Both the position numbers and the translations under genes were made by a program. The notes beneath the pieces are model-generated. The model did no database searches. It was not told the DNA's origin and saw only the letters and a program-made list of their open reading frames with translations. 64,000 bases of DNA from Lingula anatina (taxonomy: Eukaryota > Animalia > Brachiopoda), in NCBI GenBank assembly GCA_051362555.1, contig CM120641.1:744001-808000 (forward strand), read 5' to 3'. Each line of letters starts with the position of its first letter. Within the stretch, counting starts at the first letter, position 1. Shown here piece after piece: positions 285 through 63,287 of this stretch.

Positions 285-900
285 ACCGATAACACGATAA
301 GTGGAACACCGTTTTTTCTTTTGGCTTGAAACTTACAGAACTGATGAATATTCGTAATACGCAGGTCAAGTTCGAAAATCAGCATGATCGGGTCACTAAT
401 AGGGAATTTATGCTGTTTTTTCGCTTTTTTCAGCATATATGCAGCACCGATAACACGATAAGTGGAAAACCGTTTTACCTTTTGGCTTGAAACTTACAGA
501 ACTGATGAATATTCCTAATACGCAGGTCAAGTTCGAAAATCAGCATGATCGGGCCATTTTTAGGGAAGTTATGCTGTTTTTTCACTTTTTTCAGCATATA
601 TGCAGCACCGATAACACGATAAGTGGAAAACCATTTTACTTTTGGCTTGAAACTTACAAAACTGATGAATATTCATAATCCGCAGGTCAAGTTCGAAAAT
701 CAGCATGATCGGGTCATTTTTAGGGAAGTTACGCTGTTTTTTCACTTTTCTCAGCATATATGCAACACCGATAACACGATAAGTGAAATAACATTTTACC
801 TTTTGACTTGAAACTAACAGAACTGATGGATATTCATAATACGCAGGTCAAGTTCGAAAATCAGCAAGATCGGGCCTTTATTTTTGAAGTTATGCTGTTT
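285..900 (+). repeat. ~161-bp tandem satellite core of the HINE (about 4 copies)
   Basis: accgataacacgataagtg recurs at 285, 446, 607 and 767. Similar arrays lie at ~1365-1970, 2366-3310, 3715-4340, 12808-13420 and 24430-24880. Confidence 0.95.
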
Positions 901-2274
901 TTTCACATTTCCTCAGATTCAATTATTAGGCATGTTAACAGTCTCATTATTTAACTAATAAGATACGTAAAAGTGTTTGTTAATTGTTAATTGATTGTGT
1001 AAAATTGATGGTAAACTTGTTATCGTGTATTGTGTAATAAAGTGTCAAAAATGGTAATAAACTCATCATTGCAGTTTGTCAGATTCAATCATCCACTATG
1101 TTCAGAATCTCAGAATGGAGGAAATTGGACATTAAACACTGTTCTATTGATATTTTCCCCATCTCATCAATTTTCTTAGTTGGTCATATAAAAATGGCAA
1201 CAAACTGTTTATTTTGTTTTATGTTTAAAAAATGTTAAAAATGGAAATAAACCCATTTCAGAACAGTGCTGTCTTGTTTACATTTTGGCATTTTTATGTA
1301 CAGACACAGATGTGTCTGTACATATAGCCATCACCTGCGTCTGTCGTCGTCGCCGTGCACTTTCACCGATAACACGATAAGTGAAAAACCGTTTTACCTT
1401 TTGGCTTGAAACTTACAGAACTGATGAATATTCATAATATGCAGGTCAAGTTCGAAAATCAGCATGATCAGGCCATTTTGATGGAAGTTATGTTGTTTTT
1501 TCCCTTTTTTCAGCATATTTATAACACCGATAACACAATAAGTGAAAAACCATTTTACCTTTTGGCTTGAAACTTACAGAACTGATGAATATTCATATTA
1601 TGCAGGTCAAGTTCGAAAATCAGCATGATCGGGCCATTTTTATGAAAGTTATGCTATTTTTTCATTTTTTTCAGCATATATGCAACACCGATAACACGAT
1701 AAGTGAAAAACCATTTTACCTTTTGGTTTGAAACTTACAGAACTGATGAATATGCATAAAACGCAGATCAAGTTCGAAAATCAGCGTGATCGGAGCAATT
1801 TTATGGAAGTTATGCTGTTTTTTCAGCATATATGCAATACCGATAACACATTTCAAGGAAAATCAATTGGCCAATTGTCTTGAAATTCACAGGGGTGATC
1901 AGTCTTACTGAAATACAGATGAAGTTAAAAAATAAGTTCGATCGGTTCAGTTTTGGTGAAGTTATGCCTTTTTTTGTATATAAGTGTTTTTTATTCAGAT
2001 TTAATTCTTAGGCATGTTAACAATCTCATTTGTGAACTAATTAAATATGTAAAGGTGTTCCTTTGACATTTTCTACATCTTAATATTGTTAGTTGATTAT
2101 ATAAAAATGATGGTAAACCTGTTATTGTGCATTGTGTTATAAAGTGTCAAAAAATGGAAATAAACTTATCTTTACAGTTTGTAAGATTCAATCATTCACC
2201 ATGTTCAGAATCTCAGAATGGAGCAAATTGGACATTTAAAATTGTTCTATTGATATTTTTCCTATGTCATCAAT

Positions 2275-5200
2275 TTTTATGTACAGACACAGATGTGTCT
2301 GTACATATAGCCATCATCTGCGTCTGTCGTCGCCGTCGCCGTCGTCGCCGTCGCCGTGCACTTTTACCGATAACACGATAAGTGGAAAACTGTTTTTTCT
2401 TTTGGCTTGAAACTTACAGAACTGATGAATATTCGTAATACGCAGGTCAAGTTCGAAAATCAGCATGATCGGGTCACTTATAGGGAACTTATGCTGTTTT
2501 TTCACTTTTTTCAGCATATATGCAGCACCGATAACACGATAAGTGGAAAATCATTTTACCTTTTGGCCTGAAACTTAAAGAACTAATGAATATTCATAAT
2601 ACGCAGGTCAAGTTCGAAAATCAGCATGATCGGGTCACTTATAGGGAATTTATGCTGTTTTTTCACTTTTTTCAGCATATATGCAGCACCGATAACACGA
2701 TAAGTGGAAAATCATTTTACCTTTTGGCTTGAAACTTACAGAACTGATGAATATTCATAATACGCAGGTCAAGTTCGAAAATCAGCATGATCGGGTCACT
2801 TATAGGGAATTTATGCTGTTTTTTCACTTTTTTCAGCATATATGCAGCACCGATAACACGATAAGTGGAAAACCATTTTACCTTTTGGCTTGAAACTTAC
2901 AAAACTGATGAATATTCATAATACGCAGGTCAAGTTCGAAAATCAGCGTGATTGGGTCATTTTTAGTGAATTTAGGCTATTTTTTCTCTTTTTTCAGCGT
3001 ATATGCAGCACCGATAACACCATAAATGGAAAACCATTTTACCTTTTGGCTTGAAACTTACAAAACTGATGAATATTCAAAATACGCAGGTCAAGTTTGA
3101 AAATCAGCATGATCGGGCCATTTTTAGGGATGTTATGCTGTTTTTTCACTTCTTTCAACATATATGCAACGCTAATAACACAATATAAGAAAAACAGATA
3201 GGCCAATTGTCATTATACTCACAGGAGTAGTCAAACTAACTAAAAAACGCAGGTTCAGTTCCAAAATCAGCATAATCGGGCCATTCTTTTAGAAGTTATG
3301 CTGTTTTTTCACATTTCCTCAGATTCAATTGTTAGGCATATTAACAGTCTCATTATTGAACTAATAAGATACGTAAAAGTGTTTGTTTGACATTTCCTGC
3401 ATCTTAATAACATTGTTAGTTGATTATGTAAAAATGATGGTAAACTTGTTATTGTGTATTATGTTATAAAGTGTCAAAAATGGAAATAAACAAATATCAT
3501 TGCAGTTTGTCAGATTCAATCATCTACTATATTCATTATCTCAGAATGGAGGAAATTGGACATTTAACACTGTTCTATTGATATTTTTCCCATCTCATCA
3601 ATTTTCTTAGTTGATCATATACAAATGGTAGAAAACTGTTTATTTTGTTTTATGTTAAAAAAGTGTTTTAAAAATGGAAGTAAACCAATTGCAGAACAGT
3701 GCTGTCTTGTTTCAGCATATATGCAGCACCGATAACACGATAAGTGGAAAACCATTTTACCTTTTCCCTTGAAACTTACAAAACTGATGAATATTCATAA
3801 TACGCAGGTCAAGTTCGAAAATCAGCATGATCGGGTCATTTTTAGGGTAGTTATGCTGTTTTTTCACTTTTTTCAGCATATATGCAGCACCGATAACACG
3901 ATAAGTGGAAAACCATTTTACCTTTTGGTTTCAAACTTACAGAACTGATGAATATTCATAATACGCAGGTCAAGTTCGAAAATCAGCATGATCGGGTCAC
4001 TTATAGGGAATTTATGCTGTTTTTTCATTTTTTTCAGCATAAATGCAACACCGATAACACGATAAGTGAAAAACCGTTTTACCTTTTGGCTTGAAACTTA
4101 CTGAAATGATGAATTTTCATAATACGCAGGTCAAGTTTGAAAATCAGCCTGATCGGGCCATTTTTATGGAAGTTATGCTGTTTTTTCACTATTTCAGCAT
4201 ATGTGCAACACTGATAACACATTTCAAGGAAAATCAATTGGCCAATCGTCTTGAAATTCACAGGGGTGATCAGATTTACTAAAATTAAGATGAGGTTCGA
4301 AAATAAGCTTGATCGGTTCAGTTTTGGTGAAATTGTGCCTTTTTTTGTATATAAGTCTTTTTTCCTCGGATTTAATTCATAGGCATGTTAAGAATCTCAT
4401 TTGTGAACTAATTAGTAATGTAAAGGTGTTCTTTTGACATTTTCTGCATCTTAACAATATTGTTAGTTGATTATATAAAAATGATGGTAAACCTGTTATT
4501 GTGCATTGTGTAATAAAGTGTCAAAAATGGAAATAAACTCATATCTTTAACAGTTTGTCAGATTCAATTATTCACCATGTTCAGAATCTCAGAATGGAAC
4601 AAATTGGACATTTATAATTTTTCTATTGATATTTTTCCTATGTCAACAACTTTCTTAGTTGATCATTTAAAAACGACAGTAAATTGATTATTTTGATATA
4701 TATATATATGTAAAAAAAAGTGTTGAAAGTGGAAAGAAATTCATTTCAGTACAGTTATCTCTTGTGTACATTTTGGCATTTTGAATTTGTGACTCTGAAC
4801 TTCCATGGCCCTGAAGACCTTTCCATATCAATTTTTCTGAATGTCCATGATACTTTTATTTCATTATTAAAAATTGATGGTCATTATGCTGTTAAGCATT
4901 ATAGTTTTTTGTTACAATTAAATTTTTCACATATGGACATTTTCAAGGTGTGACTTAGTCTTTGAACTTCCATTGGCTTGAATACCATTGCTAGTCACAT
5001 CTTTTGAATAGCTATGATACATTTACTTTATTATTAAAAATTGATGACCATTGTGCTGTTAAGCATTATGTTAAATTGCATAAAAGATGAAAAAAACCCT
5101 TTTTTGGACATCGCTGCTGGGATGACCATTAAGGAAAAACCATTTTACTTATGATATTCTAACTTACTGAAAAGTTTCATAGGACTGAAGTGTAGCTTGT

Positions 5201-6197: not shown

Positions 6198-9100
6198 TTA
6201 GTTGTTCATTTAAAAATGACAGTAAATTGATTATTTTGTTATATGTAAAAAAAAAGTGTTGAAAGTGGAAAGAAAATCATTTCAGTACAGTCATCTCGTT
6301 TACATTTTGGCATTTTGAAGGTGTGACTCTGAACTTCCATGGCCTTGAAGACCTTTCCATGTCACATTTTCTGAATATCCATGATACTTTTATTTTATTA
6401 TTAAAAATTGATGATCATTATGTTATATTGGATAAAAGTTGAAGAAAACCCTATTTTGGACATCGCTGCCGGAATGACCATTAAGGAAAAACCATGTTGC
6501 TTATGATACTCAAACTTACTGAAAAGTTTCACTGAAGTGCAGTTTGTGTTGGAAAATCAGTGTGATTGTTTTCTGTTTTGGAAGCAATGCAGCTCTATAG
6601 AGTGATCTATGGGGCTACTGTTTATGGATGGTGGTAATTGTCCCTTGGGGTAGTCACAAGCTAATTTCAGAGCTATAAAATTACTTGCCTAATTAATTTC
6701 CAAGTGCCCATTAAATAGGATTACATAAAACACACGTTGAGATTTCCCAGTAAAGCCCCATAGGTAAAGCTCTCTTAACTGTGTCACATGATTAGGAATT
6801 GGTGATAATTAATATTATGCAGGTAAATATTGTTTAATATTGCAAATAAGTTTACAAAAGAAAAAAAAATTGTGTAACGCCAACATTAATGCTGTATTAT
6901 CCTCAAACACATTGGGGTTATTCATATCATATTAATACAGCAAGATTAAAAGTTTGAATAGCAGCTTTATTGGAATATTTTTGTTGTGTTTTTTTTTTTT
7001 TTTTTTTAATCATTTTTCAAACACTGGCATTTTCAGCTCCCATCCACCTGAAGCTCTTCACATTTTCTGTATTTCCACATAAGCAGTTGCATTGGTTTTT
7101 ATGTCTTTAAACATTATGTAATATTATTTTATGCACTGTTATCTTTTTTCGGATATTGGGATTTTCATTATGTGAATTTGAACTCTCATGGTCCTGAAAC
7201 TGTAATCTTATTGCAGGGGCGGATTGAGGCCATCTTCTGGGTCTTTCAGAAGACGGTCAGATTTTAAAGTTCACAAGGATGGGTATCTGTTTTTTCTGTT
7301 GGAAAACCATTAAAAATGGGGGATGGATCAACAAAGATGATTTGGAATACTGTCAGAAAATACCTCTGGATCTGCTCCTGTTATTGACCATGTTACCAGT
7401 TGTGCATGATTAAACTTCAATGTTGATTGACAGTGCTATTATAGGCATTATTTATTATTGCATCAAAATTGACAAAATGACCCATTTTCTGCATTTATAT
7501 TTTCTGTTTTTGTCTGTACATTTGACAGCTTTGCTGCCTTGTTAAGATGTGACTTTGAAATTTCATGAGCCTGCAGACCTTTGCTAATCACATTTTCTGA
7601 ATATTCATGATACTAATATTTTATGATTAAAAATTGATGGTCATTGTGCTGTTAAACATTATGTAATATTGCATCAAAACTTAAAGAAACCCTATTTTGG
7701 GCACTGCTCCCATGATGACCATTTAAGAAAAACCATGTCACTTACTGTTTTCAAACTTACAGGAAAGAAACATAGGGCTAAAATACAGCTTCAGTAGGCA
7801 ATGCAGTCTGTTTGGTAATTTTTTTCAGGCAGTTAAACAGTTTTTTGTGAAAATTTAATTTTTCACATATTGGCATTTTCAAGGTGTGACTTTGAAGTTC
7901 CATGAGCCTGCAGACCTTTGCTAGTCACGTTTTCTGAATGTTCATGTTACTAATATTCTATTATTAAAAATTGATGGTCATTATGCTGTTAAACATTATG
8001 TAATATTGCATCAAAATTTGAAGAAACCCCTATTTTGGGCACTGCTCCCATGATGACCATTTAAGAAAAACCATGTCACTTACTGTTTTCAAACTTACAG
8101 GAAAGAAACATGGGTCTAAAATACAGCTTCAGTAGGCAATGCAGTCTGTTTGTTAATTTTTTCTGGCAGTTAAATAGTTTTTGTGAAAATTTAATTTTTC
8201 ACTTATTGGCATTTTCAAGGTGTAACTTTGAAGTTCCATGATCCTGAAGACCTTTGCTTGTCACGTTTTCTGAATGTCCATGTTACTAATATTCTATTAT
8301 TAAAAATTGATGGTCATTATGCTATTAAGCATTATGTAATATTGCATCAAAATAGAAGAAAACACAACTTTGGTGCTGCTGCTATGATGAGCATTATGGG
8401 AAAACCGTGTTATGACTGTCAAACCTTTAAAAAAGAAACACAGGACTAAAATGCAGAATGAGTTGGAAAAGCAGTCTAATTGGCTTCTTTTTCTGGAAGT
8501 TATACATTTGAGTGAAATATTCATTATCTTTTTGGCATATTCATTGTGGGACTCGGAGCTCCCATGGACATGAAGCCGAATGGTAATCAAATTTTCTACA
8601 TGTCCATGCTATTTATTGTCATTAATCAAAGATTGGTGATAATTATTCTATTATAGGTTAAGCTCTCTTAACTGTGTCACATAATTAGGAATTGGTGATA
8701 ATTATGCAGGTAAATGTTGTTTAATATTGCAAATAAGTTTACAAAAGAAAAAAAATTGTGCAATGCCAACATTAATGCTATAGATGAATAACAGTGCCTT
8801 ATTATCCTCAAACACATTGGGATTATTCATATCATGTTAATACAGCAAGATTAAAAGTTTGAATAGCAGCTTTATTGGAATATTTTTTTTTATTTGTGTT
8901 TTCTTTTTAATTTTTTTCTAAACACTGGCATTTTCAACTCCCATCCACCTGAAGCTCTTCAGATTTTCTGTATTTCCACATAAGCAGTTGCATAGGTTTT
9001 TATGTCTTTAAACAATATGTAACATTATTTTATGCACTGTCAACATTTTTCAAATATTGGGATTTTCATTATGTGAATTTGAACTCTCATAGTCCAGAAA

Positions 9101-12548: not shown

Positions 12549-14581
12549 TTTTATGTACAGACACAGATGTGTCTGTACATATTGCCATCACCTGCGTCTG
12601 TCGTCGCCATCACCGATGCCGGCGCCGTGCACTTTCCTTTTAAACACGATAAGTGGAGGGCAGTTTTACTTTTTGGCTTTATATTTACAGAGCTGATGAA
12701 TATTCATAAAACGCAGGTCAAGTTCGAAAATCAGCATGATCAGGCCATAATTATAGAAGTTATGCTGTTTTTATGTACAGACACAGTCGCCGTTGCCGTG
12801 CACTTTAACCGTAAACACGATAAGTGAAAAACCGTTTTACCTTTTGGCTTGAAAGTTACAGAACTGATGAATATTCATAATACGCTGGTCAAGTTCGAAA
12901 ATCAGCATGATCAGGCTATTTTTAGGGAAGTTATGCTGTTTTTTCAATTTTTCAGCATATATGCAACATCGTGAACACGATAAGTGAAAAACCGTTATAC
13001 CTTTTGGCTTGAAAGTTACAGAACTGATGAATATTCATAATACGCCGGTCAAGTTTGAAAATCAGCATGATCGGGTCATTTTTAGGGAAGTTATGCTTTT
13101 TTTCACTTTTTTCAGCATATATGCAACACCGTAAACACGATAAGTGGAAAACAGTTTTACCTTTTGGTTTGAAACTTACAGAACTGATGAGTATTTATAA
13201 TACCCAGGTCAAGTTCGAAAATCAGCATGATAGAGCCTTTTTTATGGAAGTTATGCTGTTTTTTCATTTTTTTCAGCATATATGCAACACTGATAACACA
13301 ATATAAGAAAAACAGATAGGCCAATTGTCATTGTACTCACAGGAGTGGTCAATCTTACTAAAACATAGGTTGAGTATGAAAATCAGCATAATCGGGCCAA
13401 TATTTTAGAAGTTATGCTTTTTTTTCACATTTCCGCAGATTCAATTCTTAGGAATGTTAATAGTCTCATTATTGAACTAATAAGATACGTAAAAGTGTTT
13501 GTTTCACATTTCCTGCATTTTTACAACATTGTCAGGTGATTTTGTAAAAATGATGGTAAATTTGTTATCGTGTATTGTGTAATGAAGTGTCAAAAATGGA
13601 AATAAACACATATCATTGCAGTTTGTCAGATTCAATCATCCACTATGCTCAGAATCTTAGAATGGAGGAAATTGGACATATAACACTGTTCTATTGATAT
13701 ATTTCCCATCTCATCAATTTTCTTAGTTGGTCATATAAAAATGGCAGTAAATTGTTAATTTTGTTTTATGTTAAATAAGTGTTAAAAATGAAAATAAACC
13801 CATTTCAGAAAAGTGCTGTCTTGTTTACATTTTGGCATTTTCAAGATGTGACTTTGAAGTTCCATGGTCCTGAAGACCTTTGCTAGTCACATTTTCTGAA
13901 TATCCATGATTCTAATATTTTATTATTAAAAATTGATGGTCATTATGCTGTTAAACATTATGTAATATTGCATCAAAATTTGAAAAAAACCTACTTTGGG
14001 CACTGCTCCCATGATGACCATTTAAGAAAAACCATGTCACTTACTGTTCTCAAACAGTACAGTAAATATGTACAGATGTGTCAAAAATGTGTCTGTACAT
14101 ATTGCCATCACCTGCGTCTGTCTTTGCCGTCACCGCCGTCACCTGCACCTTGCACTTTCATTGTAAACATGATAAGTGGAAGGCAGTTTTACTTTTGGGC
14201 TTTATATTTACAGAGCTGATGAATATTCATAAAACGCAGGTCAAGTTCGAAAATCAGCATGATCGGGCCATTATTGTAGAAGTCATGCTTTTTTTCACTT
14301 TTCAGTATATTTCACATATTGGCATTTTCAAGGTGTGACTTTGAAGTTCTACATGCTTGAAGACCCATGCTAGTCACATTTTCTGAAAATCCATGATACG
14401 TATATTTTATTATTAAAAATCGAGGGTCATTATGCTGTTAACCAATATGTAATATTGCATCAGAATAGAAGAAAACAATTATGGGTGCTGCTGCCATGAT
14501 GACCATTATGGGAAAACCATGTTACTTATGATTGCCAAATGTTCAAAAAAGAAATGCAGGACTAAAATGCAGCCTGGGTTG
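12549..14581 (+). mobile_element. HINE cluster (5' ends at ~12550, ~12768 partial, ~14068 partial), truncated at 14581
   Basis: Same palindromic 5' end, microsatellite and 161-bp monomers as copies 1-3. Confidence 0.85.
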
Positions 14582-15127: not shown

Positions 15128-15131
15128 TTAA

Positions 15132-15677
15132 GTGCCATTTCACGAGAGAATCAACCAAATAGCGGCAAGGTGGGGGTCAACAGATTCAACCCAAATTTTC
15201 TGTGTTTGATAACTGTTACAAAAGATGTTGAAAGCACACTTTAAAAAAATTCTGAAAATTCTGGAAAAAATAGATATTGCCATCTGAAATTTGGGGGTCC
15301 TGACTACACAAAATATCGTAACAAAAGTAGTGGAAGTTTGCTTGTAAATTCCATGAAGGATTTGACATTTCAGCCTTAACTATTCCCTTTTTCTAAGGAT
15401 CCATGCCAAGACCTTTCGGATGATATGTGACTAAATTGTCAATCACGTTGCTATAGTAACGAAATTGGCCCGTGAAAAGAGGGTACAAAATCAAGGTAAA
15501 AAATCAGCACTTGCCGATTGGCAAATTTAGCCTAACACGGCGTCAAATTTGAATAAAATAAGACAATTTTTGAACAGTTAAGCACTTGAGCTTTGTAATT
15601 ACGCAATAAAAAATACTGCACCTCGTCAGGATACGTTGGGGTGGACGTCTAGAATGAGGGGTGTGAGCGGTGAGTTA
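15132..15677 (+). repeat. Left TIR (~546 bp)
   Basis: Reverse complement of 19075-19629 with few substitutions and one ~9-bp indel near the outer end. Confidence 0.95.
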
Positions 15678-15870
15678 CGCGGTTGTTCATTTCTATGGTA
15701 CTGTTGAAATACGCCTGGTTTTTATTAATCGTACTTTTTGCTTATGTTAACACAAATGACAATACTCTAAATAGTTTTCCGAATGATTAGCGTCGTTGTA
15801 ATTGGTTTCAAGACCAAGAAAATAGTTCGAAACTTACGTCCATAACTCTGCGTGCTTCCTCACAATCAAC

Positions 15871-16890
15871 ATGGCGGAAAGATGTGGACGTCGGTGTGAG
15901 AAGTCAATATTTTTGATGCAGAAAAGGGAGCATGCGGACTTAAACCTGTCTACAAATATCAGACGAGTTGTATCTTGCTTCGGGAGTGAACCAGACATGT
16001 TGAGAATCATTTACGAAATCTGAATGTGCTTCGCGTCCAGGGTCAAATCAGGGATGATAGGGAGCACATTCTTCAGACGCTCCGAGTGTGAGCTACTGAG
16101 CCTAATGGTATATTTCGACTAGGGACGGAATAGACTCAATCCAGAGAGTGCCAACACCCACTTCACACAAAGAAAGGAAAACCCTTTGCTAACCAAGCGA
16201 CTGGCGTCTAGATTTCAAAGATTTGTTTGCCCTACTCACTAGGCCTAGGGTATGAGGTAAATAAGATTCTGTGCCATTCCTTAGATTCATCATCCTTTAT
16301 ATGTCTTATTAGTTTTACTGAAAAAAAAACCCTTCATTCTGCTTATTATATGCGTTTCTCTTTGAAAAATATTGTTGTTTAGTATTCCAATCAATGTTTG
16401 TTTCAATATCATTGATGTTTGTTGTGATAATTCTAAAGCTTGAAATGTGGATTTTATCATTGCTAGATAGGACCCTGCTAATAAAAAGCCTTTCATCTGG
16501 GTAAATTTTATAGTTTCCAGAAAATTGTAAGCAAGGATAAATATGTAAAATTATATTTTCATTTTGTTTTTCAGATTAACTGAGTGGAGAAAGCCAGTTA
16601 GAACTGGGTTGCAGTTATATTTCTGCTAGATAAATCTGTCTGCCAGCTGAAAACTAACATGGATAGCTTTGGAGAAATATTAGTTTAGATGTTGTTGGGT
16701 ACTATCACTGTGCTCCAACATTTTGTCCATAATGATACCAGCTTTATCTGAACAGACAGGCTTCTTTGTTCAGCACAAGCAGGAGAGGACAAATGTGAAC
16801 AAAAATTGCTCCCCTTGAAGTCTCATAAGAAAGGATGAATAAAAAACAAAGAAGAAACTGTTAAACAAGGATGCATAACTGAGTGTTCAG
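15871..16890 (+). pseudogene. Decayed Sola3-like transposase, left copy (exon 1 plus catalytic-core remnant, internally deleted)
   Basis: caacATGGCGGA at 15871. Frameshifted CGL...LLRE*TRHVENHLRNLNV...FRLGTE*...CQHPLH. Donor near 16258, acceptor near 16574. DVVGYYHCAPT at 16688-16720 and QAGEDKCEQKIAP/LKSH at 16776-16826. Confidence 0.65.
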
Positions 16891-17329
16891 CAAATCATTG
16901 GTTATTTTTCATGTTTTTAAAATCTGTTTATCTGTGGAGTTGGATCAACCTATGTGGGATAATATTTCATTGGGAACAAGCCATATGGCTGATGCAGAAT
17001 GTTATATAAGCATGCAATGTCAGCATCCCCTTTAAAAATATACATAATGCTCCACAGTGTTTCCATTGTAAACTATTACATTTTTATCTTTGGAGCAAGG
17101 TGGTACTTTTTATGTTACTTTTCATTTTTAAAAATTATTATTGAAGCACTCATTTCAGGTGCATGATAGCTGTTTTTATTCATTTCCATTTCTCATTCAA
17201 AGAAAATCAGATTGCTTAAAGATAATGATATATATTTTATTGTAATTTTGAAAATTTAAAAAAAGCACCAAAAAAATACACTGTACAACCTTTTATTAGA
17301 CTAAAAAGGTCTTGCACAAATATATATAA

Positions 17330-18874
17330 AGTAGCAGATTTATGTGTTTAGTTGTTCTTGAATCTGCACTTTCATAACAGGCTATCAGTGTGTTAATGGT
17401 ACTGCTTTCCTCATCTGCTTTCTGAATATCTCTCCATACAGCTTCTTCATGACCAGGTGACAAACAATTCAGAACCAAGTTGATGCCTTCTCTTGCTTTC
17501 TGTTTGTAATACCTTCTCGTTCTTGGGGCAGTTGACCTATAGCTGGTTCAAACCCACCACGAAGAAGAAAATTATTCAAATTCCCCAGATCCTGGCTTTA
17601 CAGGTGTAGAGGCCCAAGAAGCTTCGAGGTCTGTCCTCCCATTACTTTGTGAGCTGCTGCTGCCTGACACTGGCATGTCTAACCTTGCACGCTGAAAACA
17701 GAGATTCTTTGGTTATTGTAACCTTAATAATGGGAGAGGTGAAAAAAGAATTGGTGTGCCTAAATAAAAGAAGCTTTTCATATCAAATCTTCAATAAACC
17801 ATCTAATGGTCACAAACCTCAAAGTCCTGATTTACAAACTAACTCGATACTTTAACAATGTAAAAACAGACTGAGTGATTTACAAAATCTCTACTTTAAT
17901 ATGAAAACAGTGGAGGAATTGCTATATAGTTATATCAGTAGTGTGCACCTTTATAATTACAGTATTGCTAAAACTATGCATGGAAATGATATTATAACTT
18001 ACATCAGTTTCTTCTTGGGCTGAAGAAAGTTCAGACATAGAAGCCACAGTTGTATGTTTAGTTGCTGTATACTTCTCATGGTGACAAGGGGACCTTCAGA
18101 CTATCGAGACGTACCTGTGACGGGCAGTCTCTTTCTCTTTACACCTTTTACAGAGCTGAAAAAAGAATGGTATCACCTTTCAAATAAGTATCAGTCAAAT
18201 ATACTATTTAAATTTCTACAACATTAATAAAAAGTTGTTTCATAATATATATATATATATTTATGTATGTGCACAAACAATCATTGAATACATGCAAGTG
18301 AGTTACTCTAATATAAATGTTCCATTTCTCAATTATTTCGTATAAAAAATTATGCTAAACGATCTCCTATCATTGGAGAGTGTATATATAAACTGGTTAT
18401 AAAATTTGTTATGGTTTTTCCATTGTTGGAAAACTACAATTACATGTAGCTGACATAGCCATTATACTTACATGACCCTACTGGACCAACACACCAAAAT
18501 CTAGTTTCAGCTCCTTGGAAATCTCGAAGCCAATTGCTTTGTAAGAAGAGGGTTTCCCTTTCCCTTTGAGAAGTGGGTGCTGGGACTTTTTGGACGTAGT
18601 CCAGTTCGTCCCTAAACGAAACCTGTGTGCTGGACATATTGTTAAGTTGAGTAGTTGGGTCAAAGTCGAAATGGCCGAGCCTGAATAAGCTCCTTTAGCT
18701 TGTTTCTGGACATGAAGCACTTTCAGGTTTTTAAGTGGTTTTTAACGTCTCTGGTACACTCCCTAAGCAAAACACACCTCCTGTGGTATTGTATGGAATG
18801 CTGAGTCCGCACGGTATACTTTCTGCACCAGGAATATTCGCTATCTCACATCTAAGTCCGCCTCCTTCCGCCAT
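17330..18874 (-). pseudogene. Decayed Sola3-like transposase, right copy (three N-terminal exons, 3' truncated)
   Basis: caacATGGCGGA at 18874. Exon 1 runs to 18472 (CVLLRECTRDVKNHL...LTICPAHRFRLGTNW...HP...FGVLV/VGS). Exon 2 ~18155-18003. Exon 3 from ~17692 (LNNFLL...RTRRYYKQKAREGINLVLNCLSPG...TLIACYESADSRTTK). Frameshifts present. Confidence 0.7.
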
Positions 18875-19074
18875 GTTGTGTACATTTTGGGGTCAATGAC
18901 GCAGAGTCATAAACGAAAGTTTCGAAATATTTTCTTTATCCTCTAATCGTTACAATAACCTTTATAATTCGGAAAAAACTTTAGGATATTTTCTATTATG
19001 TTAATATAAACAAAAAAGTACGATTTATAAAGATGAGACGCATTTGAACGGCACTATCGACCGGAATCACTGTA

Positions 19075-19629
19075 TAACTCACCGCTCATACCCCTCATTC
19101 TAGACGTCCACCCCAACGTATCCTGACGAGGTGCAGTATTTTTTATTGCGTAATTACAAAGCTCAAGTCCTTAACTGTTCAAAAATTGCCTTATTTTATT
19201 CAAATTTGACGCCGTGTTAGGCTAAATTTGCCAATCGGCGAGTGCTGATTTTTTACCTTGATTTTGTACCCTCTTTTCACGGGCCAATTTCGTTACTATA
19301 GCAACGTGATTGACAATTTAGTCACATATCATCCGAAAGGTCTTGGCATGGATCCTTAGAAAAAGGGAATAGTTAAGGCTGAAATGTCAAATCCTTCATG
19401 GAATTTACAAGCAAACTTCCACTACTTTTGTTACGATATTTTGTGTGGTCAGGACCCCCAAATTTCAGATGGCAATATCTATTTTTTCCAGAATTTTCAG
19501 AATTTTTTTAAAGTGTGCTTTCAACATCTTTTGTAACAGTTATCAAACACAGAAAATTTGGGTTGAATCTGTTGACCCCCACCTTGCCGATTTTTGGCTG
19601 ATTTGGTTGATTCTCTCGTGAAATGGCAC
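19075..19629 (-). repeat. Right TIR (~555 bp)
   Basis: Reverse complement of 15132-15677. Confidence 0.95.
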
Positions 19630-20488
19630 TTAAAAGAAATTGTTTCATCTGGGTTACAAAACTTAGAGAAGCTTATAAGCTTGACTTTATTTGCCAGTTG
19701 ATACGTACGAGATATTGACAATTTTTCAAAATTCAAGATGGCCGTCAATTTGTTATGTGAATAGCGAGAGCCATACATTCAAATAAAAAAAATAATGCTT
19801 CACTCCATTGTTCATCATTGCATATTTATATTTATATCCATGCAAAGTGCGATCATTTATTTCATTTTTGCAAGTTATTTTAATAAAAAAAGGCCTCCAA
19901 AACATAATGGAAGGGCAAAGAAACAACTGTAAAACTACAAGGCTTTTAACTGAAATAGACTTTAACTGGAACAAATATAAATACATATATAAAGTGAAAA
20001 ACGATATACCTTCGTTCAAGACACAGCACACACTAAAACATATTTTTAGGTTAAATGGTACGAAAAACGAAAACCAATATGTCCGTCAATGCTGCTCTAT
20101 GATCAAACCAAACATTGATTGCTGATATCTCAGCCCTGACAACTAGTTTTTCATTCTAAATAAAAAATTAATAAAAGGTATTATCATTCTTGTATGTGTA
20201 AACTAAATCATTTTGCAATAAAAAAAGCGTCAAATCATTTTCTTCAGGTTGGATTATTCTTTTCCTTTTTTTGTAAACATTTTAAATATTTTAACAGCTA
20301 TGGGTAAAGGTATTTTTGTTGTTTAACAATGAATTTTATTATAAATAACCGAGATCCAAGCGGGGGTATACAAACCCAGAGGTTAGGGCCCATGAGGTCA
20401 GCTATTCTGGACAACGTGACATAGTACGGGGATATGCGAGGGCTATCCATCGACATCATGTATTCGAAATGTTGTTTTTGCCAATATA

Positions 20489-21686
20489 TACTTACAGATA
20501 ATGGAAGCTTTGAGATAGTAATGTATGCATTTTTCTACTTGTAGGGTAGATGTAATTATTCATTGTGCATGTATTGATGACGTAGTGCTCGGGTAGTTAA
20601 GATAATGATGAGTTGTCATGTTGCCATGGTTCATTGCACATGGGTAAGCTTTTTTTTTTTGTTGCAAAAATGGACCAAATACACATTGAGCAATACTAAG
20701 TGGGCATCTGCACATTTTGAGGATTGGTTTTGGAGGCCTATAAAGGCCCAAAATAGGCCACCGATGTTGTTAGTCCAGTGAACGGAATCATGCCATGTCT
20801 ATCATGTGAACAACGTACATCTCTGGGCAATGGGTGTGAAGGGAGTCTGATTTGAGCTATAATGTATGGGCTGTTCCCACCCCACAATCAGGAACCTGGT
20901 TGAATACCACAACATGCCAGGCTCTGTTAGCGATATACCGCAGCCAGGGCGAGAGAGTGTCAACTCCAGACCAGGATCGCTACACCAGGTTGTATCAGCT
21001 ACGGGTCCAGTTTCGCCATGCCAGTCTTACATACAAGAAGCACCCGGCAGGAACAACAACCGGAGCAGCAGCGCTTGCTGGCGGTCAACCGATGGTGGTC
21101 GTTGATGGCAACATGCCAGTAACTGCTCGTCACTACATAGATCAGATCCTGCAACCTCACATAACCTCGTTCATGCAGCAGAAAACTGATATCACCTTTT
21201 CCCAACAGGACATGACCCGTTCACATTGGGCAAAAATGATCCAAGTGTAGCTGGAGTCCCAAAGGTGGATGTCCTACCCCGGCCTGTCTATTTTCCGGAT
21301 ATGAATCCGATTGAACACTTCTGATACTACATATATCTTGTATCTTGGCCGTCCGTTGGCCAAGGCAGCAGCTGATCGAGGCACTACGACAAGGCTGGAA
21401 TAGGATTCCACACGACACCATCCCATCCACATTGATTGCCCAAGCATGCGCTAACAGATCGCGCCTGCATCGAAGCAAGCGGAGATCGTACCGGCTATTG
21501 ACCGTTGTGACTTTGTGTTGGGCTGGTGCCATTTTTGTTTTGAAACTATTCATGAAACTTCAGATTTTTGGTTCTGTATACCAATATCCTAAACAAAAGA
21601 TTCATATGAAAATAATCCAGTTTAGAGCTTCAAAATAACAATTATTTTGAAAAATATGGCCTCAAAAATTTTAATGGCTGTCAGTA
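20489..21686 (+). mobile_element. Degenerate Tc1/mariner transposon inserted at TA
   Basis: Ends ta|tacttacag and ctgtcagta|ta. The rejoined flanks match the uninterrupted paralogous sequence at ~12185-12300. Confidence 0.8.
20790..21500 (+). pseudogene. Tc1-family transposase remnant (HTH and C-terminal part of DDE domain, central deletion)
   Basis: GCSHPTIRNL...GSVSDIPQPGR/ERVSTPDQDRYTRL, GNMPVTARHYIDQILQPH, FSQQDMTRSH, PDMNPIEH, with stops and frameshifts. Confidence 0.9.
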
Positions 21687-22233: not shown

Positions 22234-25200
22234 ATTTTATGCTGTTTTTTCACTTTTCAGCATATTTTTCACATTTCCTAAGATTCAATTCTTAGGCATG
22301 TTAACAGTCTCATTATTAAACTAATAAGATACGTAAAAGTTTTTTTGACATTTCCTGCATCTTTACAACATTGTTAGTTGATTTTGTGAAAATGATGGTA
22401 AACTTGTTACCGTGTATTGTGTAATAAAGTTTCAAAAAATGGAAATAAACTCATATCATTGCAGTTTGTCAGATTCAATCATTCACTATGTTCAGAATCT
22501 CAGAATGGAAGAAATTGGACATTTAACACTGCTCTTTTGATATTTTTCCATCTCATCAATTTTTTTAGTTGATCATATAAAAATGGCAGTAAACTGTTAA
22601 TTTTGTTTTATGTTAAAAAATGTTAAAAATGGAAAAAAACCATCACAGAACAGTGCTGTCTTGTTTACATTTTGGCATTTTCAAGTTGTGACTTTGAAGT
22701 TCCATGGGCCTGAAGACCTTTGCTAGTCACATTTTCTGAATATCCATGATACTAATATTTTATTATTAAAAATTGATGGTCATTATGCTGTTAAACATTA
22801 TGTAATATTGCATCAAAATTTGAAAAAAACCTATTTTGGGCACTGCTCCCTTGATGACCATTTAAGAAAAACCATGTCACTTACTGTTCTCAAACTTACA
22901 GGAAAGAAACATGGGACTAAAATATAGCTTCAGTAGGCAATGCAATCTGCCAGTTAAACAGTTTTTTTGTGAAAATTTAATTTTTCACATATTGGCATTT
23001 TCAAGGTGTGACTTTGAAGTTCCGCAGGCTTGAAGACCCATGCTTGTCACATTTTCTGAAAATCCATGATACGTATACTTTATTATTAAAAATTGATTGT
23101 CTTTATGCTGGTAACCATTATGTAATATTGCATCAGAATAGAAGAAAACACAATTTTGGGTGCTGCTGCCATGATGACCATTATGGGAAAACCATGTTAC
23201 TTATGATTGCCAAACTTTCAAAAAAGAAATACAGGACTAAAATGCAGCCTGAGTTGGAAAAGCAGTCTTATTGACTTCTTTTTCTGGAAGTTTTACATTT
23301 TCAAAGGGTGAACTCCCATGGGCCTGAAGCCTTATGTTTGTTACACATTTTACTTACATTGGTATTACCTGTTGAGCATAATTAGAATTTGATGTTGAAT
23401 TTGCAGTTTAACATAATGTACTTTTGCATCAGAATTGACAGTAGCCTATTTTGTTATTTCCTGCTTTTTGTCTGTACATTTGACAGCTTTGCTGCCTTGT
23501 TATTTTCTGTTTTTGTCTGTACATATGACAGCTTTGCTGCCTTGTTTCACTTTTCAGCATATATGCAACCCTGTAAACACATTTTAAGGAAAACCGTTAG
23601 GCCTGTTGTCATGAAACTCAAAGGAGTAATCAATCTTACTAAAACGCAGGTTGAGTTCGAAAATCAGCATAATCGGGGCATTATTTTAGAAGTTATGCTG
23701 TTTTTTCACATTTCCTCAAATTCAATTCTTTAACTAATAAGATCATTATTCTCATTATTTAACTAACAAGACACGTAAAAGTGTTTGGTTGACATTTCCT
23801 GCATCTTTACAAATTTATTAGTTGATTATGTAAAAATGATGGTAAACTTGTTATCGTGTATTGTGTAATATAGTTTCAAAAATGGAAATAAACTCATATC
23901 ATTGCAGTTTGTCAGATTCAATCATTCACTATGTTCAGAATCTCAGAATAGAGGAAATTGGACATTTAACACTGCTCTTTTGACATTTTTCCCATCTCAT
24001 CAATTTTCTTAGTTGATTGTATAAAATGGCAGTAACCTGTTAATTTTGTTTTATGTTAAAAAAAATGGTTAAAAATGGAAAAAAAAACATTTCAGAACAA
24101 TGCTGTCTTGTTTACATTTTGGCATTTTCAAGTTAAGACTTTGAAGTTCCATGGGCCTGAAGACCTTTGCTAGTCATTTTCTGAATATCCATGATACTAA
24201 TATTTTATTATTAAAAATTGATGGTCATTATGCTCTTAAACATTATGTAATATTGCATCAAAATTTGAAAAAACCTATTTTGGGCACTGTTCCCATAATG
24301 ACCATTTGAGAAAAACCATGCCACTTATTGTTCTCAATCAGTACAGTAAATATGTATAGATGTGTCTGTACATATTGCCATCACCTGCGTCTGTCATCGC
24401 CGTCACTGTCGCTGGCGCCGTGCACTTTCATTGTAAACACGATAAGTGGAAGGCAGTTTTACTTTTTGGCTGTATATTTACAGAGCTGATGAATATTCAT
24501 AAAACGCAGGTCAAGTTCGAAAATCAGCATGATCGGGCCATTATTGTAGAAGTTATGCTTTTTTTTTCACTTTTCAGCATATATGCAACACTGTAAACAC
24601 ATTTCAAGGAAAACCGATAGGCCTGTTGTCATGAAACTCACAGGAGTAATTGATCTTACTATAACGCAGGTCAAGTTCGAAAATCGGCATGATCGGGCCA
24701 TTATTTTAGTAGTTATGCTTTTTTTTCACTTTTCAGCATATACGCAACACTGTAAACACAATATAAGAAAAACAGATAGGCCAATTGTCATTAAACTCAC
24801 AGGAGTGGTCATTCCTGCTAAAACGCAGGTTGAGTCAAAAATCAGCATAATCGGGCCATTATTTTAAAGAAATGCCGTATTTTCACATTTCCTCAGATTC
24901 AATTCTTAGGCATGTTAACAGTTTCATTATTTAATTAGTAAGACACGTAAAAGTGTTTGGTTGACATTTCCTGCATCTTTACAACATTATTAGTTGATTA
25001 TATAAAAATGATGGTAAACTTGTTATCGTGTATTGTGTAATAAAGTTTCAAAAATGGAAATAAACTCATATCATTGCAGTTTGTCAGATTCAATCATTCA
25101 CTATGTTCAGAATCTCAGAATGGAAGAAATTGGACATTTAACACTGCTCTATTGATATTTTTCCCATCTCATCAATTTTCTTAGTTGATCATATAAAAAT

Positions 25201-31015: not shown

Positions 31016-31712
31016 GTGAGTGTCAGTGTATTTTTTAAAAATTTCCCCTTTGACATGATTGTAGATTTTAGTAATATTTTCCACAATGAATGAAAAATCG
31101 TGGATTGGTATTTTTTTAAGCTTAATGGGTCATAATGGTTAAGTAGTCGGGCTATATCAGATGCTGTTTTGTTGAACCCCCCACCCTTCTTCTATTGAAA
31201 TAGCCGAGACATCTAAAATCATTACATAATTCAGAAAAAAAAAATAATAATTATTAACCATTTTTTTTTCGAGAGTGGCAGGTTTATGTATACATTTACT
31301 GTGACTAAGAGGGTTACAAGTGCCAAGTTTATCTCCCATGATTAAATGAATTTTGCTGAATCATTATTGTATTGTATTTATTTTAATAATAATATTTTTA
31401 AAAGCGAGTGCAAATGAATGAGTTGATCTTGACTCTCACAGATAGCTGTACAATAATATATCGTTAGATATAAGGCTATAGATCACTCAGTAGTAGTAAA
31501 ACAAGTTATGATACTAATAATAAGTTTGATAGACTATTAATAATAAATAAGTACACAAACAAAAAAGAGGGAGATAAACATGGAAAAGTCCATAACACAT
31601 ACAGTATATGCAACAAGTTTACCTGTTGTAATTTGAAGTAGTTCACATGTTTATTTATACAAGGAGAGCTTTAAGTATTTATATATACTTCTTTTCTATT
31701 CTCTATTCTTAG

Positions 31713-32522: not shown

Positions 32523-32696
32523 GGGCGTATTCCCAGAGCTTTTAGATCGATCTATCTCCGTGGGGAGTCTCACTAGATTACTGTCAGATAATCCAGCTTA
32601 AATGTCCGTCCCGCTCGGCTGACAGCTATTTAGTGTGAACCCCCAGGGAGTTAGGTCAATCTAAAGTAGATTGATCTAATCTCTGGGACTGGGGTC
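32523..32696. mobile_element. PIF/Harbinger (Tourist-like) MITE
   Basis: TAA on both sides. Inverted ends ttcccagag..ttagatcgatcta / tagattgatctaatctctggga. Second copy in opposite orientation at 63062-63287. Confidence 0.75.
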
Positions 32697-32745
32697 TAAG
32701 AGTACCATAATCAACAAGTAAATAGAGATTATAATTTTCTTACAG

Positions 32746-33078
32746 CAGATGTCCAGATTATCACAGCACATAGTGGAGACAACGTCACCTTTAACGTAAG
32801 TCTACCAGTGAAGCCACACCCCAAGCTCCCTGTAGATTTCTGCAAGGATTCAGAGTGTCTAATTCAGTATGTGCTGAGTTCTGACAAACCTGTAGAATGG
32901 TTAACCAATAATACTAACGGGTTGGAAAACAGAATGGGCCTTGTGATTCCGAAGAATGGCAACGTAAACATCAGAATAAGAAACATAAGACCAGAAGATA
33001 GTGGAACATACACATTCCGGGTGACACCTCCAGATGAGTTCCCAGTGAACATTTCTTTGGAATTGAAAGTTCTTAATG
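32746..33078 (+). CDS. Ig-domain membrane protein, exon 3 (V-like Ig domain)
   Basis: 333 bp, phase 1-1. ADVQIITAHSGDNVTFNV...NRMGL...GNVNIRIRNIRPEDSGTYTFRV...LELKVL matches the Ig A'/B, D, E, F and G strand pattern. Confidence 0.9.
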
Positions 33079-33498
33079 GTAAGTGTAAGTATTTGTTTAT
33101 ACAAACCTGAATACTGCAATTTAAGATGTCATTAAGATATACCTTACTGTTCTCGTAATGGATTGATTTAAGGTCATCACAAGATCAGCTGAGTACACTT
33201 GATAATTCTCCTTAATCAAATGTTAAATCATCTTAACTTTAACATTGTATACTTATTTTGTACAAGGCTTGCTCCGGGTGCTTATATTAGTCACAGTAAA
33301 TGTATACATAAACCTGCCACTTCATAATGTATTTTTGTTGAACTCAGACATGTCGTTCTTGTCTCTTCCTTGATCAGAACATTGGACCTGATTAAGTGCC
33401 ATCATTACATTTATATTTACTATGAATTTATGATAGTTATTGCCAACCAATTTATGGATTTAATTATCAAGATGTGTAATTTTAACATTTTTTTTCAG

Positions 33499-39520: not shown

Positions 39521-39939
39521 AATACAGTGGAAATAATATATTAATGCAGATCATGTGCCAAAATACATGTAGCTATATCTGCCAAAATAAGTGCTGTATG
39601 GTGATTAACAATAACAAGAATGAAAAGCAAATTTAGACTTTGTTCAGCAAAAGCTCTGTTTCAAAACATATAAATAAATCTAGATAAAGTCTTAATGGGG
39701 TTGTAAAAAATGAGGGGTGTTATGACAATGGTTTACATATCTTACCAGTACACTCAGTCATACTGTACAAGCCATGGTGTTTCTCAAAATTTTATTTAAA
39801 GTTCAAGTATTCATTTCAGTGTCATTTTATTTGGCAGTTATCAGTACAATACACATCTGAAATATACTGAGTATCCACTATTATTCTGACAGGATGTTTC
39901 GGCGGGACACATATAATTGAACTGAAATTGGTGTGAGTG

Positions 39940-39942
<3 letters not shown>

Positions 39943-40000
<58 letters not shown>
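39943..40000. repeat. (GA)n microsatellite next to the TTC9C intron 1 donor
   Basis: Seen directly, about 29 units. Confidence 0.97.
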
Positions 40001-40003
<3 letters not shown>

Positions 40004-40005
40004 AC

Positions 40006-40276
40006 CGGCCAAATTATTGTAACAATCACTTTTCAGCTTCGTCACTTCTTCCTGTACCTCTGGAGGTAAAATAGGTTCTTGCTCTCCCGTTAGCTGCGAA
40101 AATGGATTACTTGCCCCAACACCTTTCAGATACAGCAACGCTTTGTGATAATTACGAATGGCGTTTTTGTAATTTTTCTTCTTGTACTGTTCATTGCCTT
40201 CATTTTTGAATGACTTTGCTTGATTCAGTTTATCAGCTGTATTGTTCTGATCTTCTACTTTTGCAGACGCCATCAT
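40006..40276 (-). CDS. TTC9C: TTC9C-like TPR protein, exon 1 (MMASAK...FKNEGNEQYKKKNYKNAIRNYHKALLYLKG...DCYNNLA)
   Basis: Family motifs and donor G|gtagg. The three exons join to 585 nt (194 aa). Confidence 0.92.
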
Positions 40277-40354
40277 CAAGAAATTTTCTTCTGTGCAAAC
40301 AATAAAAAACTAATAATATAAATGAAATATAGTCATGTTTCCATAAAACATGGG

Positions 40355-63061: not shown

Positions 63062-63287
63062 GGGTGCTTTCCCAGAGATTTAGATCGATCTAAAGATTAA
63101 GTTTTAGATTGACCTAACTCCCTGGGGGTTCACGCTAAATTGCAGTCAGCCGAGCAGGCACCATAGTTAATTACCCCCTTACAGCTTTTAGTAGGCAGGA
63201 CAGACGCTTAAGCCGGCCAAGCTGACAGTAATCTAGTGAGACTCCCCACAGGGATAGATCGATCTAAAAATCTATGGAAATGGGGTG
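63062..63287. mobile_element. PIF/Harbinger (Tourist-like) MITE, inverted paralog of 32523-32696
   Basis: TAA flanks. Shared interior (ctaactccctgggggttcac, ctgacagtaatctagtgagactcccca) plus a ~40-bp extra segment. Confidence 0.75.

What the first reader, a model, noticed from the sequence alone, without database searches (positions are those of the whole stretch)
15132..19629. Two-headed Sola3-like transposon with convergent paralogous transposase genes, one starting from each TIR
Seen: beyond the near-identical ~545-bp TIRs the inverted symmetry continues in diverged form for ~600 bp more. Both arms lead into caacATGGCGGA (15871 +, 18874 -) and homologous first exons (CGL..LLRE.TR.V.NHL.NL.V..FRLGT...QHPL..KGKP). 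The right gene keeps three N-terminal exons. The left gene keeps catalytic-core remnants (DVVGYYHCAP, QAGEDKCEQKIAP). Known: Sola3 elements have TTAA TSDs, long TIRs and normally one transposase gene. Inference: this is either a hybrid of two 5' halves from different subfamilies or an old foldback duplication. It may instead be a real two-gene architecture. Convergent transcription could make dsRNA that silences the family.
Basis: partly seen in the sequence, partly recalled or inferred. Interest (0 to 1): 0.8.

Follow-up and report, generated by a model that had tools for sequence, protein, structure and literature searches.

The report
Two-headed, still-transcribed broken Sola3 transposon
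This is a broken animal jumping gene whose two ends each start a related transposase gene, and both genes are still transcribed and spliced towards each other; it most likely arose when the normal right end was replaced by an inverted left end from a sister element, as seen before in maize and flies.

Summary
A 4,498-bp element (15132-19629) lies between TTAA duplications, with 545-bp arms 98.9% identical and ~580 bp more at 73-75% that covers promoter and first exon. An empty site occurs in three runs. Both arms derive from a Sola3-type DDE transposase; the nearest named proteins are from Lingula anatina. One correction: the left gene is a whole gene with two large deletions and the right is its paralogue's 5' third, not two 5' halves. 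Stranded RNA shows both genes transcribed convergently and all three introns spliced. The transcripts abut near 17150-17230 and hardly overlap, so the dsRNA idea gets no support. Neither window gene has an ORF above 57 codons. None of 82 related loci has a second head, though several mirror their promoter in the right end. Best reading: a non-autonomous derivative formed by left-end capture, as in maize Mu killer and Drosophila Galileo. A true two-gene lineage with a truncated regulator is not excluded (about 0.2).

The parts
15128..15131 (.). left TTAA target-site duplication
   Evidence: sequence; empty-site joint 15128>19632
15132..15676 (+). left near-identical TIR, starts GTGCCATT
   Evidence: 539 of 545 identical to the right arm; same first 8 bases after TTAA in loci L013 and L044
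15677..15870 (+). left promoter zone, diverged mirror of 19075-18875
   Evidence: 73% identity; RNA begins near 15875
15871..16256 (+). left gene exon 1 (N-terminal Cys/His region), with stops and frameshifts
   Evidence: RNA depth up to 49 on one strand only in X15
16257..16574 (+). left intron, GT-AG, likely a fusion of intron 1 with a later intron across a deletion of about 600 codons
   Evidence: spliced joints in X15, X18 and X6; the next exon maps to residue 586 of P0033
16575..17150 (+). left exon 2: remnant around the second catalytic Asp and the following GKD-type motif (16604-16826), second deletion, C-terminal remnant (16854-16911), 3' tail
   Evidence: RNA depth falls in the bin 17075-17229; 3' end approximate
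17230..17691 (-). right gene exon 3; homology to the family ends at 17276, then AT-rich tail with AATAAA at 17241-17236
   Evidence: RNA on the opposite strand down to about 17230
17692..18002 (-). right intron 2, GT-AG
   Evidence: spliced in X12, X15 and X6
18003..18155 (-). right exon 2
   Evidence: RNA depth 47-50 in X12 and X15; holds the start of the 139-aa proteins annotated in Lingula
18156..18471 (-). right intron 1, GT-AG
   Evidence: spliced in X12, X15, X18 and X6
18472..18874 (-). right gene exon 1, paralogue of left exon 1, frameshifted
   Evidence: N-terminal profile E 8.5e-13; 50% amino-acid identity to left over 106 positions
18875..19075 (-). right promoter zone
   Evidence: 73% identity to left; RNA begins near 18875
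19076..19629 (-). right near-identical TIR
19630..19633 (.). right TTAA target-site duplication
   Evidence: sequence; empty-site joints

Best explanation
This is a non-autonomous Sola3-type DNA transposon with a deleted transposase gene on the left and an inverted 5' third of a paralogous gene on the right, both transcribed and spliced; it likely formed when the normal right end was replaced by the left end of a diverged sister element. Inferred steps: break repair or nested insertion plus deletion copied TIR, promoter and exons 1-3 in inverted orientation; both genes then decayed; exchange between the arms and the need for transposase binding kept the outer 545 bp almost identical; a transposase supplied from elsewhere moved the unit into TTAA. 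Both promoters sit just inside the TIRs and still fire. The two RNAs end next to each other, so the element most likely makes two non-coding, pseudogene-like RNAs rather than dsRNA or protein.
For: Shown: TSD, arms and gradient; empty site in X1, X5 and X18, so the unit entered one TTAA as a whole; strand-specific convergent RNA and three spliced introns; no ORF over 57 codons in the window's spliced genes; the three annotated Lingula copies give only 139-140 aa from exon 2 and share a frameshifted end; 0 of 82 related loci carry a second head; 7 of 15 single-gene relatives mirror the region up to the promoter but not the coding part. For a donor that had evolved apart as a working gene: left-right dN/dS 0.48 (bootstrap 0.25-0.93), neutral simulations reach the observed excess in 3-9% of runs, and intron 1 does not align. 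Precedents: Galileo TIR extension and chimeric copies (PMC3573991); Mu killer (PMC3440606).
Against: No parent subfamily with a right-type head and a complete gene was seen (no genome is held). The dN/dS signal is weak, and differences by codon position are not skewed (22/91, 21/93, 27/93; p 0.31). The intron may fail to align only because the left deletion starts near the donor. Left and right are sisters on a long shared stem (98/98), which fits a duplication inside one lineage as well. Promoters and three splice junctions still work after about 26% divergence, and many expressed right-gene reads lack some of the window's frameshifts, which could mean longer selection on that gene. The 82 comparison loci do not come from the Lingula subclade.
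Confidence: 0.5

Rival explanations
1. Old foldback: one element copied its own left 2.4 kb onto the right end, making a giant TIR, and both copies then decayed almost neutrally while only the outer 545 bp stayed homogenised.
For: Promoter zone (73%) and exon 1 (74-75%) are equally diverged and there is no codon-position skew; working single-gene controls show a strong skew (pS 0.22-0.35, pN 0.06 in 5 pairs); left and right are sisters; Galileo TIR1-F1-F1-TIR2 copies arise this way (PMC3573991).
Against: pS 0.38 against pN 0.22, neutral simulation 3-9%; no alignable trace of intron 1.
Confidence: 0.22
2. Real two-gene lineage: an autonomous ancestor carried a full transposase and, from the other TIR, a truncated paralogue of about 370 residues without the catalytic core that acted as a repressor or helper; the window holds a decayed descendant.
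For: The right gene stops well before the first catalytic Asp and has its own polyA-type end; its exon 3 is well kept up to the conserved helix and more ragged after it (by eye); it is less decayed than the left in the tree (0.42 against 0.84); dN/dS 0.48; two collinear sequence types 5-10% apart cover both halves; truncated P-element proteins repress transposition (PMC7776569).
Against: No intact ORF in the window; annotated copies give only 139-140 aa; 0 of 82 relatives have the layout; the ragged tail still resembles the next stretch of a full transposase, as a truncation would; DNA binding by the N-terminal part is not shown (low-confidence model).
Confidence: 0.2
3. The element works as a Mu killer-like silencer: read-through across the whole unit folds the 545-bp arms into dsRNA, or convergent RNAs pair, and small RNAs silence the family. 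This is a claim on function and can hold beside any origin.
For: Same anatomy as Mu killer (PMC3440606); low-level reads on the TIRs in X12 (up to 1.5) and X18 (up to 8), and a trace of opposite-strand reads at 17385-17539 (0.9 of 22 and 1.7 of 54).
Against: Mature transcripts abut; TIR depth is 0 over most bins in X15; the diverged arms share no perfect match over 13 nt; the family is transcribed in three studies. PolyA-type libraries would miss diced or unpolyadenylated RNA.
Confidence: 0.08
4. Assembly artefact or a single rearranged site that never moved as a unit.
For: No listed contig spans the whole element or the 17150-17276 junction in one piece; the flanks are multi-copy too.
Against: Exact TTAA at both ends, an empty site in three runs, cover across the junction zone in all four runs, two sequence types at 16974-17146, three annotated copies on three scaffolds.
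Confidence: 0.03

Closest known systems
Sola3 DNA transposons (Repbase Sola superfamily; Sola3 RNase H profile in the supplement of PMC5751038)
   Same: DDE transposase family; intact relatives match the published Sola3 profile consensus by eye at positions 17-40 and 69-93; TTAA duplication and long TIRs (these two family traits are recalled, the founding paper is not held).
   Different: Two paralogous convergent genes instead of one; no intact transposase; termini GTG..CAC (recalled Sola3 termini are GAG or CAG; relatives L013 and L044 also start GTG).
Maize Mu killer (PMC3440606; passages read)
   Same: Both TIRs derive from the transposase-side end, with two partial transposase copies facing each other.
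   Different: Mu killer's duplicate is a young copy of the same gene at one locus and silences MuDR; here the heads are about 26% diverged, each has its own working promoter and splicing, the unit is multi-copy, and silencing is not shown.
Drosophila mojavensis Galileo extended-TIR and chimeric copies (PMC3573991; passages and second part of the Discussion read)
   Same: Internal sequence behind TIR1 recruited in inverted form before TIR2; TIRs of one subfamily around the interior of another; such forms can found a subfamily.
   Different: In the passages read the recruited part is the non-coding spacer; here it covers three coding exons with introns and remains transcribed. Different superfamily.
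Maize MuDR (mudrA and mudrB; PMC3440606 passages)
   Same: Two convergent genes, each driven from a promoter at a TIR.
   Different: mudrB is a separate protein of unknown function and MuDR is autonomous; here the second gene is a paralogue and both are broken.
Kolobok (PMC9587614; passages read)
   Same: TTAA duplication; some lineages carry a second gene.
   Different: Kolobok termini are 5'-RR; this element starts GT; KolX is not a transposase paralogue; the protein matches Sola3.

Membership tests
Sola3 | Transposase belongs to the Sola3 DDE family | tested here: met
   Window exons hit intact relatives (E down to 1e-16); those relatives match 49 read positions of the published 131-position Sola3 profile consensus by eye. 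The profile was not run and the Sola1 and Sola2 profiles were not read. The best-matching stretch is deleted in the window itself.
Sola3 | TTAA target-site duplication (trait recalled) | tested here: met
   TTAA both sides; empty-site joints; the contig form differs by one base from an exact single-TTAA join
Sola3 | Long TIRs (trait recalled) | tested here: met
   545 bp at 98.9%
Sola3 | Terminal GAG or CAG (trait recalled) | tested here: inconclusive
   Window starts GTG; two related loci start with the same GTGCCATT after TTAA; the founding paper could not be read
Sola3 autonomous element | One intact transposase ORF with the catalytic triad | tested here: not met
   Longest ORFs 50 and 57 codons; first-Asp region absent from both genes
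Sola3 (Repbase/Dfam consensus set) | Canonical consensus sequences have one gene | not testable with these tools
   Repbase and Dfam are not on hand; proxy: 0 of 82 related loci have a second head, 14 of them show both inner TIR ends
Kolobok | 5'-RR termini and Kolobok transposase with KolX | tested here: not met
   Termini GT..AC; definition from PMC9587614
Mu killer-type silencing locus | Two same-side ends with facing partial transposase copies | tested here: met
Mu killer-type silencing locus | Hairpin or antisense RNA that yields small RNAs and silences in trans | tested here: inconclusive
   No overlap or read-through in mRNA-type runs; no small-RNA run was listed

The most novel reading that the evidence does not exclude
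A lophotrochozoan Sola3 lineage once ran as a true two-gene transposon: a full transposase from one TIR promoter and, from the mirror promoter, a catalytically empty paralogue that tuned its activity, a eukaryotic counterpart of built-in transposase inhibitors. The mirrored promoters left in single-gene relatives would be eroded traces of the same left-end capture, so this element would be a snapshot of how Sola3 rebuilds its long TIRs.
Probability: 0.2. Interest if true: 0.75.

Novelty: new variant of a known kind. Interest (0 to 1): 0.42.

Why it matters
It shows, with RNA support, that an animal transposon with two left ends can keep both promoters and all splice sites, spread to several copies and still avoid overlapping transcripts. 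Together with the mirrored promoters in single-gene relatives it gives a testable model for how long TIRs arise in a little-studied superfamily. It also explains three 'uncharacterized' Lingula gene models as transposon fragments. If an intact two-gene parent exists, it would be a new regulatory design for eukaryotic DDE transposons.

Tried and rejected
No genome is held for the window, so no copy census. Word-indexed protein search with right exon 3 found nothing; the exhaustive search found 13 hits. Pfam has no family for the window pieces or the intact relatives beyond weak C2H2 hits. Viral contigs: no relatives. No RNA holder was listed by index; raw RNA runs of the same species label were laid instead. 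A weak tblastn match at 17259-17366 (+) to the catalytic region (E 0.04-0.06, best of 123 queries) was not recovered by the family profile and is rejected as chance. No conserved second ORF in the right arms of 38 related loci (1 unrelated-family tblastx pair). The fold of an intact relative has low confidence (mean pLDDT 53.5) and only weak integrase/RNase H matches (best E 0.005); it says nothing about the N-terminal third. The Atlas gave only leads under 0.9. Contig depth was not used as copy number. The founding Sola paper and one alignment paper were not held (ids recalled). The Majorek supplement gave no Sola3 sequences in the part searched; 21 of 33 supplement files of PMC10294476 were not searched. 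Literature searches listed no report of a two-gene Sola3; most subscription papers and Repbase Reports are outside the library. Earlier findings: none bore on this element.
Full report
Observation. The element spans 15132-19629 between TTAA at 15128-15131 and 19630-19633. The arms match at 539 of 545 aligned bases with one 9-bp indel, then drop to 73% over the promoter zone and 74-75% over exon 1; the diverged part scores 396 against at most 20 in 200 shuffles. Similarity ends at a shared splice donor, and the first introns align no better than shuffles.

Identity of the genes. An exhaustive search with right exon 3 gave 13 hits. The best cluster holds three Lingula anatina gene models of 139-140 aa on three scaffolds; they differ from the window at 4-6 of 58 residues in the in-frame block. 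The host is therefore likely Lingula or a close relative (inference). These led to long proteins from limpet, ribbon worm, mussel, corals and amphioxus. Their core matches, by eye, the two stretches I read (49 of 131 positions) of the Sola3 profile in the supplement of PMC5751038. A predicted model of one relative resembles integrase cores only weakly. That Sola3 has TTAA duplications and long TIRs is recalled; the founding paper was not held.

Anatomy. Frameshift-aware alignment shows that the right gene covers roughly the first third of the transposase in three exons and ends at 17276, far before the first catalytic Asp. The left gene has exon 1, then jumps to the region around the second catalytic Asp (score 58.5, shuffles at most 21.1; also E 5.5e-5), then jumps again to the C-terminal end (20.5 against 14.6). 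It is thus a whole gene with two large deletions. Spliced, the window's genes have no ORF over 50 and 57 codons.

Mobility and copies. A joint from 15128 to 19632 appears in one contig each of X1 and X5 (2 of 4 runs) and in 7 reads of X18 (1 of 4 runs). The contig form is one base off an exact single-TTAA join. Because nothing lies between the flanks, the unit entered one site as a whole. The flank is itself repeated, so the empty form may be a paralogue rather than an allele. Contigs show two collinear sequence types in both halves and near the junction, for example 2 against 15 differences in 250 bases (X1) and 1 against 9 plus an 8-base gap at 16974-17146 (X9). One X9 contig carries a TIR end about 87% alike followed by other sequence. 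I could not show two-headed copies at different sites directly. No listed contig spans the element, and both lay outputs were cut to the best-supported rows. Some window letters differ from every contig laid, so the window's own copy or individual is probably not among the runs.

Transcription. In two stranded runs from different studies (X12, X15; about 6% of each read) left exons are covered on one strand only (up to 7.6 and 49 against 0) and right exons almost only on the other (up to 61 and 52 against at most 1.7). The splice signals fix the directions independently: GT-AG on plus for the left intron, on minus for both right introns. RNA starts cluster at 15875 and 18875. In the bin 17075-17229 depth is under 2 on both strands in both runs, and most TIR bins have 0 in X15. 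The unstranded run X18 agrees on exons and shows low TIR cover. An unlabelled contig run, X6, shows the same three joints. Most reads are 90-99% alike, so they come from other copies or individuals, and left and right RNAs cannot be tied to one copy. Many expressed right-gene reads lack some window frameshifts (for example at 18788: 34 of 62, 52 of 75, 126 of 154 reads). Whether any expressed copy is fully open is not shown; the annotated copies are not.

Is the layout canonical? I fetched the best 80 of 314 confirmed metagenome matches and 2 genome-collection matches. None of the 82 has an opposite-strand hit by tblastn or by an N-terminal profile that finds the window's right head at E 8.5e-13. 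Fourteen show both inner TIR ends around one gene; they fall into about five families, and the profile sees the forward N-terminus in 9 of the 14. In 7 of 15 loci tested the right end mirrors the left within 350 bases of the coding start, grading from near 100% to 55-65%, but not into coding sequence (z at most 5, against 28-30 in the window). So the graded mirror is ordinary, and the mirrored exons are not. These loci are not from the Lingula subclade.

Origin. Left and right are sisters in a tree of 23 rows (98/98; 21 relatives chosen to drop near-duplicates). Over 90 codons pS is 0.38 and pN 0.22, dN/dS 0.48 (0.25-0.93); neutral simulations reach this excess in 3-9% of runs; five control pairs of single-gene relatives give pS 0.22-0.35 and pN 0.06-0.07. 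Raw codon-position counts show no skew (p 0.31). The simplest reading is a period of separate evolution as working genes followed by decay, which fits capture of a sister element's left end (0.5) or a real two-gene ancestor (0.2); a mainly neutral foldback stays possible (0.22). The much higher identity of the outer 545 bp needs later homogenisation in every case (inference).

Silencing. The mRNAs are alike in the same sense and do not overlap; the diverged arms share no perfect match over 13 nt. Only read-through of the whole unit could pair the TIRs, and mRNA-type runs do not show it. Small RNA was not available.

What is known. Mu killer has two same-side TIRs and facing partial transposase copies, and MuDR has convergent genes driven from its TIRs (PMC3440606, passages). 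Galileo recruits sequence behind TIR1 in inverted form and makes chimeric copies (PMC3573991, passages and part of the Discussion). Kolobok shares TTAA but has RR termini (PMC9587614, passages). Truncated P-element proteins repress transposition (PMC7776569, passages). PMC5751038: passages and two supplement parts. PMC10294476, PMC5199201, PMC8634313, PMC4455052, PMC3985635, PMC6446971, PMC5753468 and bioRxiv 2021.09.26.461848: passages only, none describing Sola3 layout. Ten searches listed no two-gene Sola3, but Repbase Reports and most subscription papers are outside the library, and bioRxiv supplements are closed.

Verdict. A real, transcribed, two-headed non-autonomous Sola3-type element: a new variant of a known kind of rearrangement. 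Interest 0.42; a two-gene parent, if found, would deserve about 0.75.

Noticed in passing
L024, L026, L028, L031, L042, L008 (right ends): Single-gene relatives mirror their left end, in graded identity, up to the promoter zone just before the coding start; the right TIR may carry an inward-facing promoter in ordinary Sola3 elements.
   Followed up: partly
L044:2555 and L013 (right end): Related elements begin TTAA then GTGCCATT, as the window element does, although the rest of the TIR does not align.
   Followed up: partly
window 285-4346, 12808-13427, 24500-24866; 7544-8361: Arrays of a 160-161-bp unit broken by other repeats, and a 336-bp tandem; the element sits inside this repeat-rich block.
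   Followed up: no
window 20840-21500: Decayed reading frames that look by eye like a Tc1-type transposase remnant; no Pfam hit.
   Followed up: partly
window 39881-40309 (-): Exon of a TPR protein (Pfam TPR_1 E 5e-4), TTC9-like by recall.
   Followed up: no
window 32700-33110 (+): Immunoglobulin V-set exon (E 4e-8).
   Followed up: no
window 15868-15877 and 18869-18877: RNA 5' ends fall almost on the ATG, inside an AACATGGCGG motif that resembles a YY1-type initiator site (label recalled; ends).
   Followed up: no
L081, L082: Two prokaryote genome-collection contigs hold this animal transposase, probably host DNA binned into assemblies.
   Followed up: no
window 31274-31308 / 33287-33321; 32540-32665 / 63103-63269: A perfect 35-bp inverted pair 2 kb apart and a longer, distant inverted pair; possible small transposons.
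   Followed up: no
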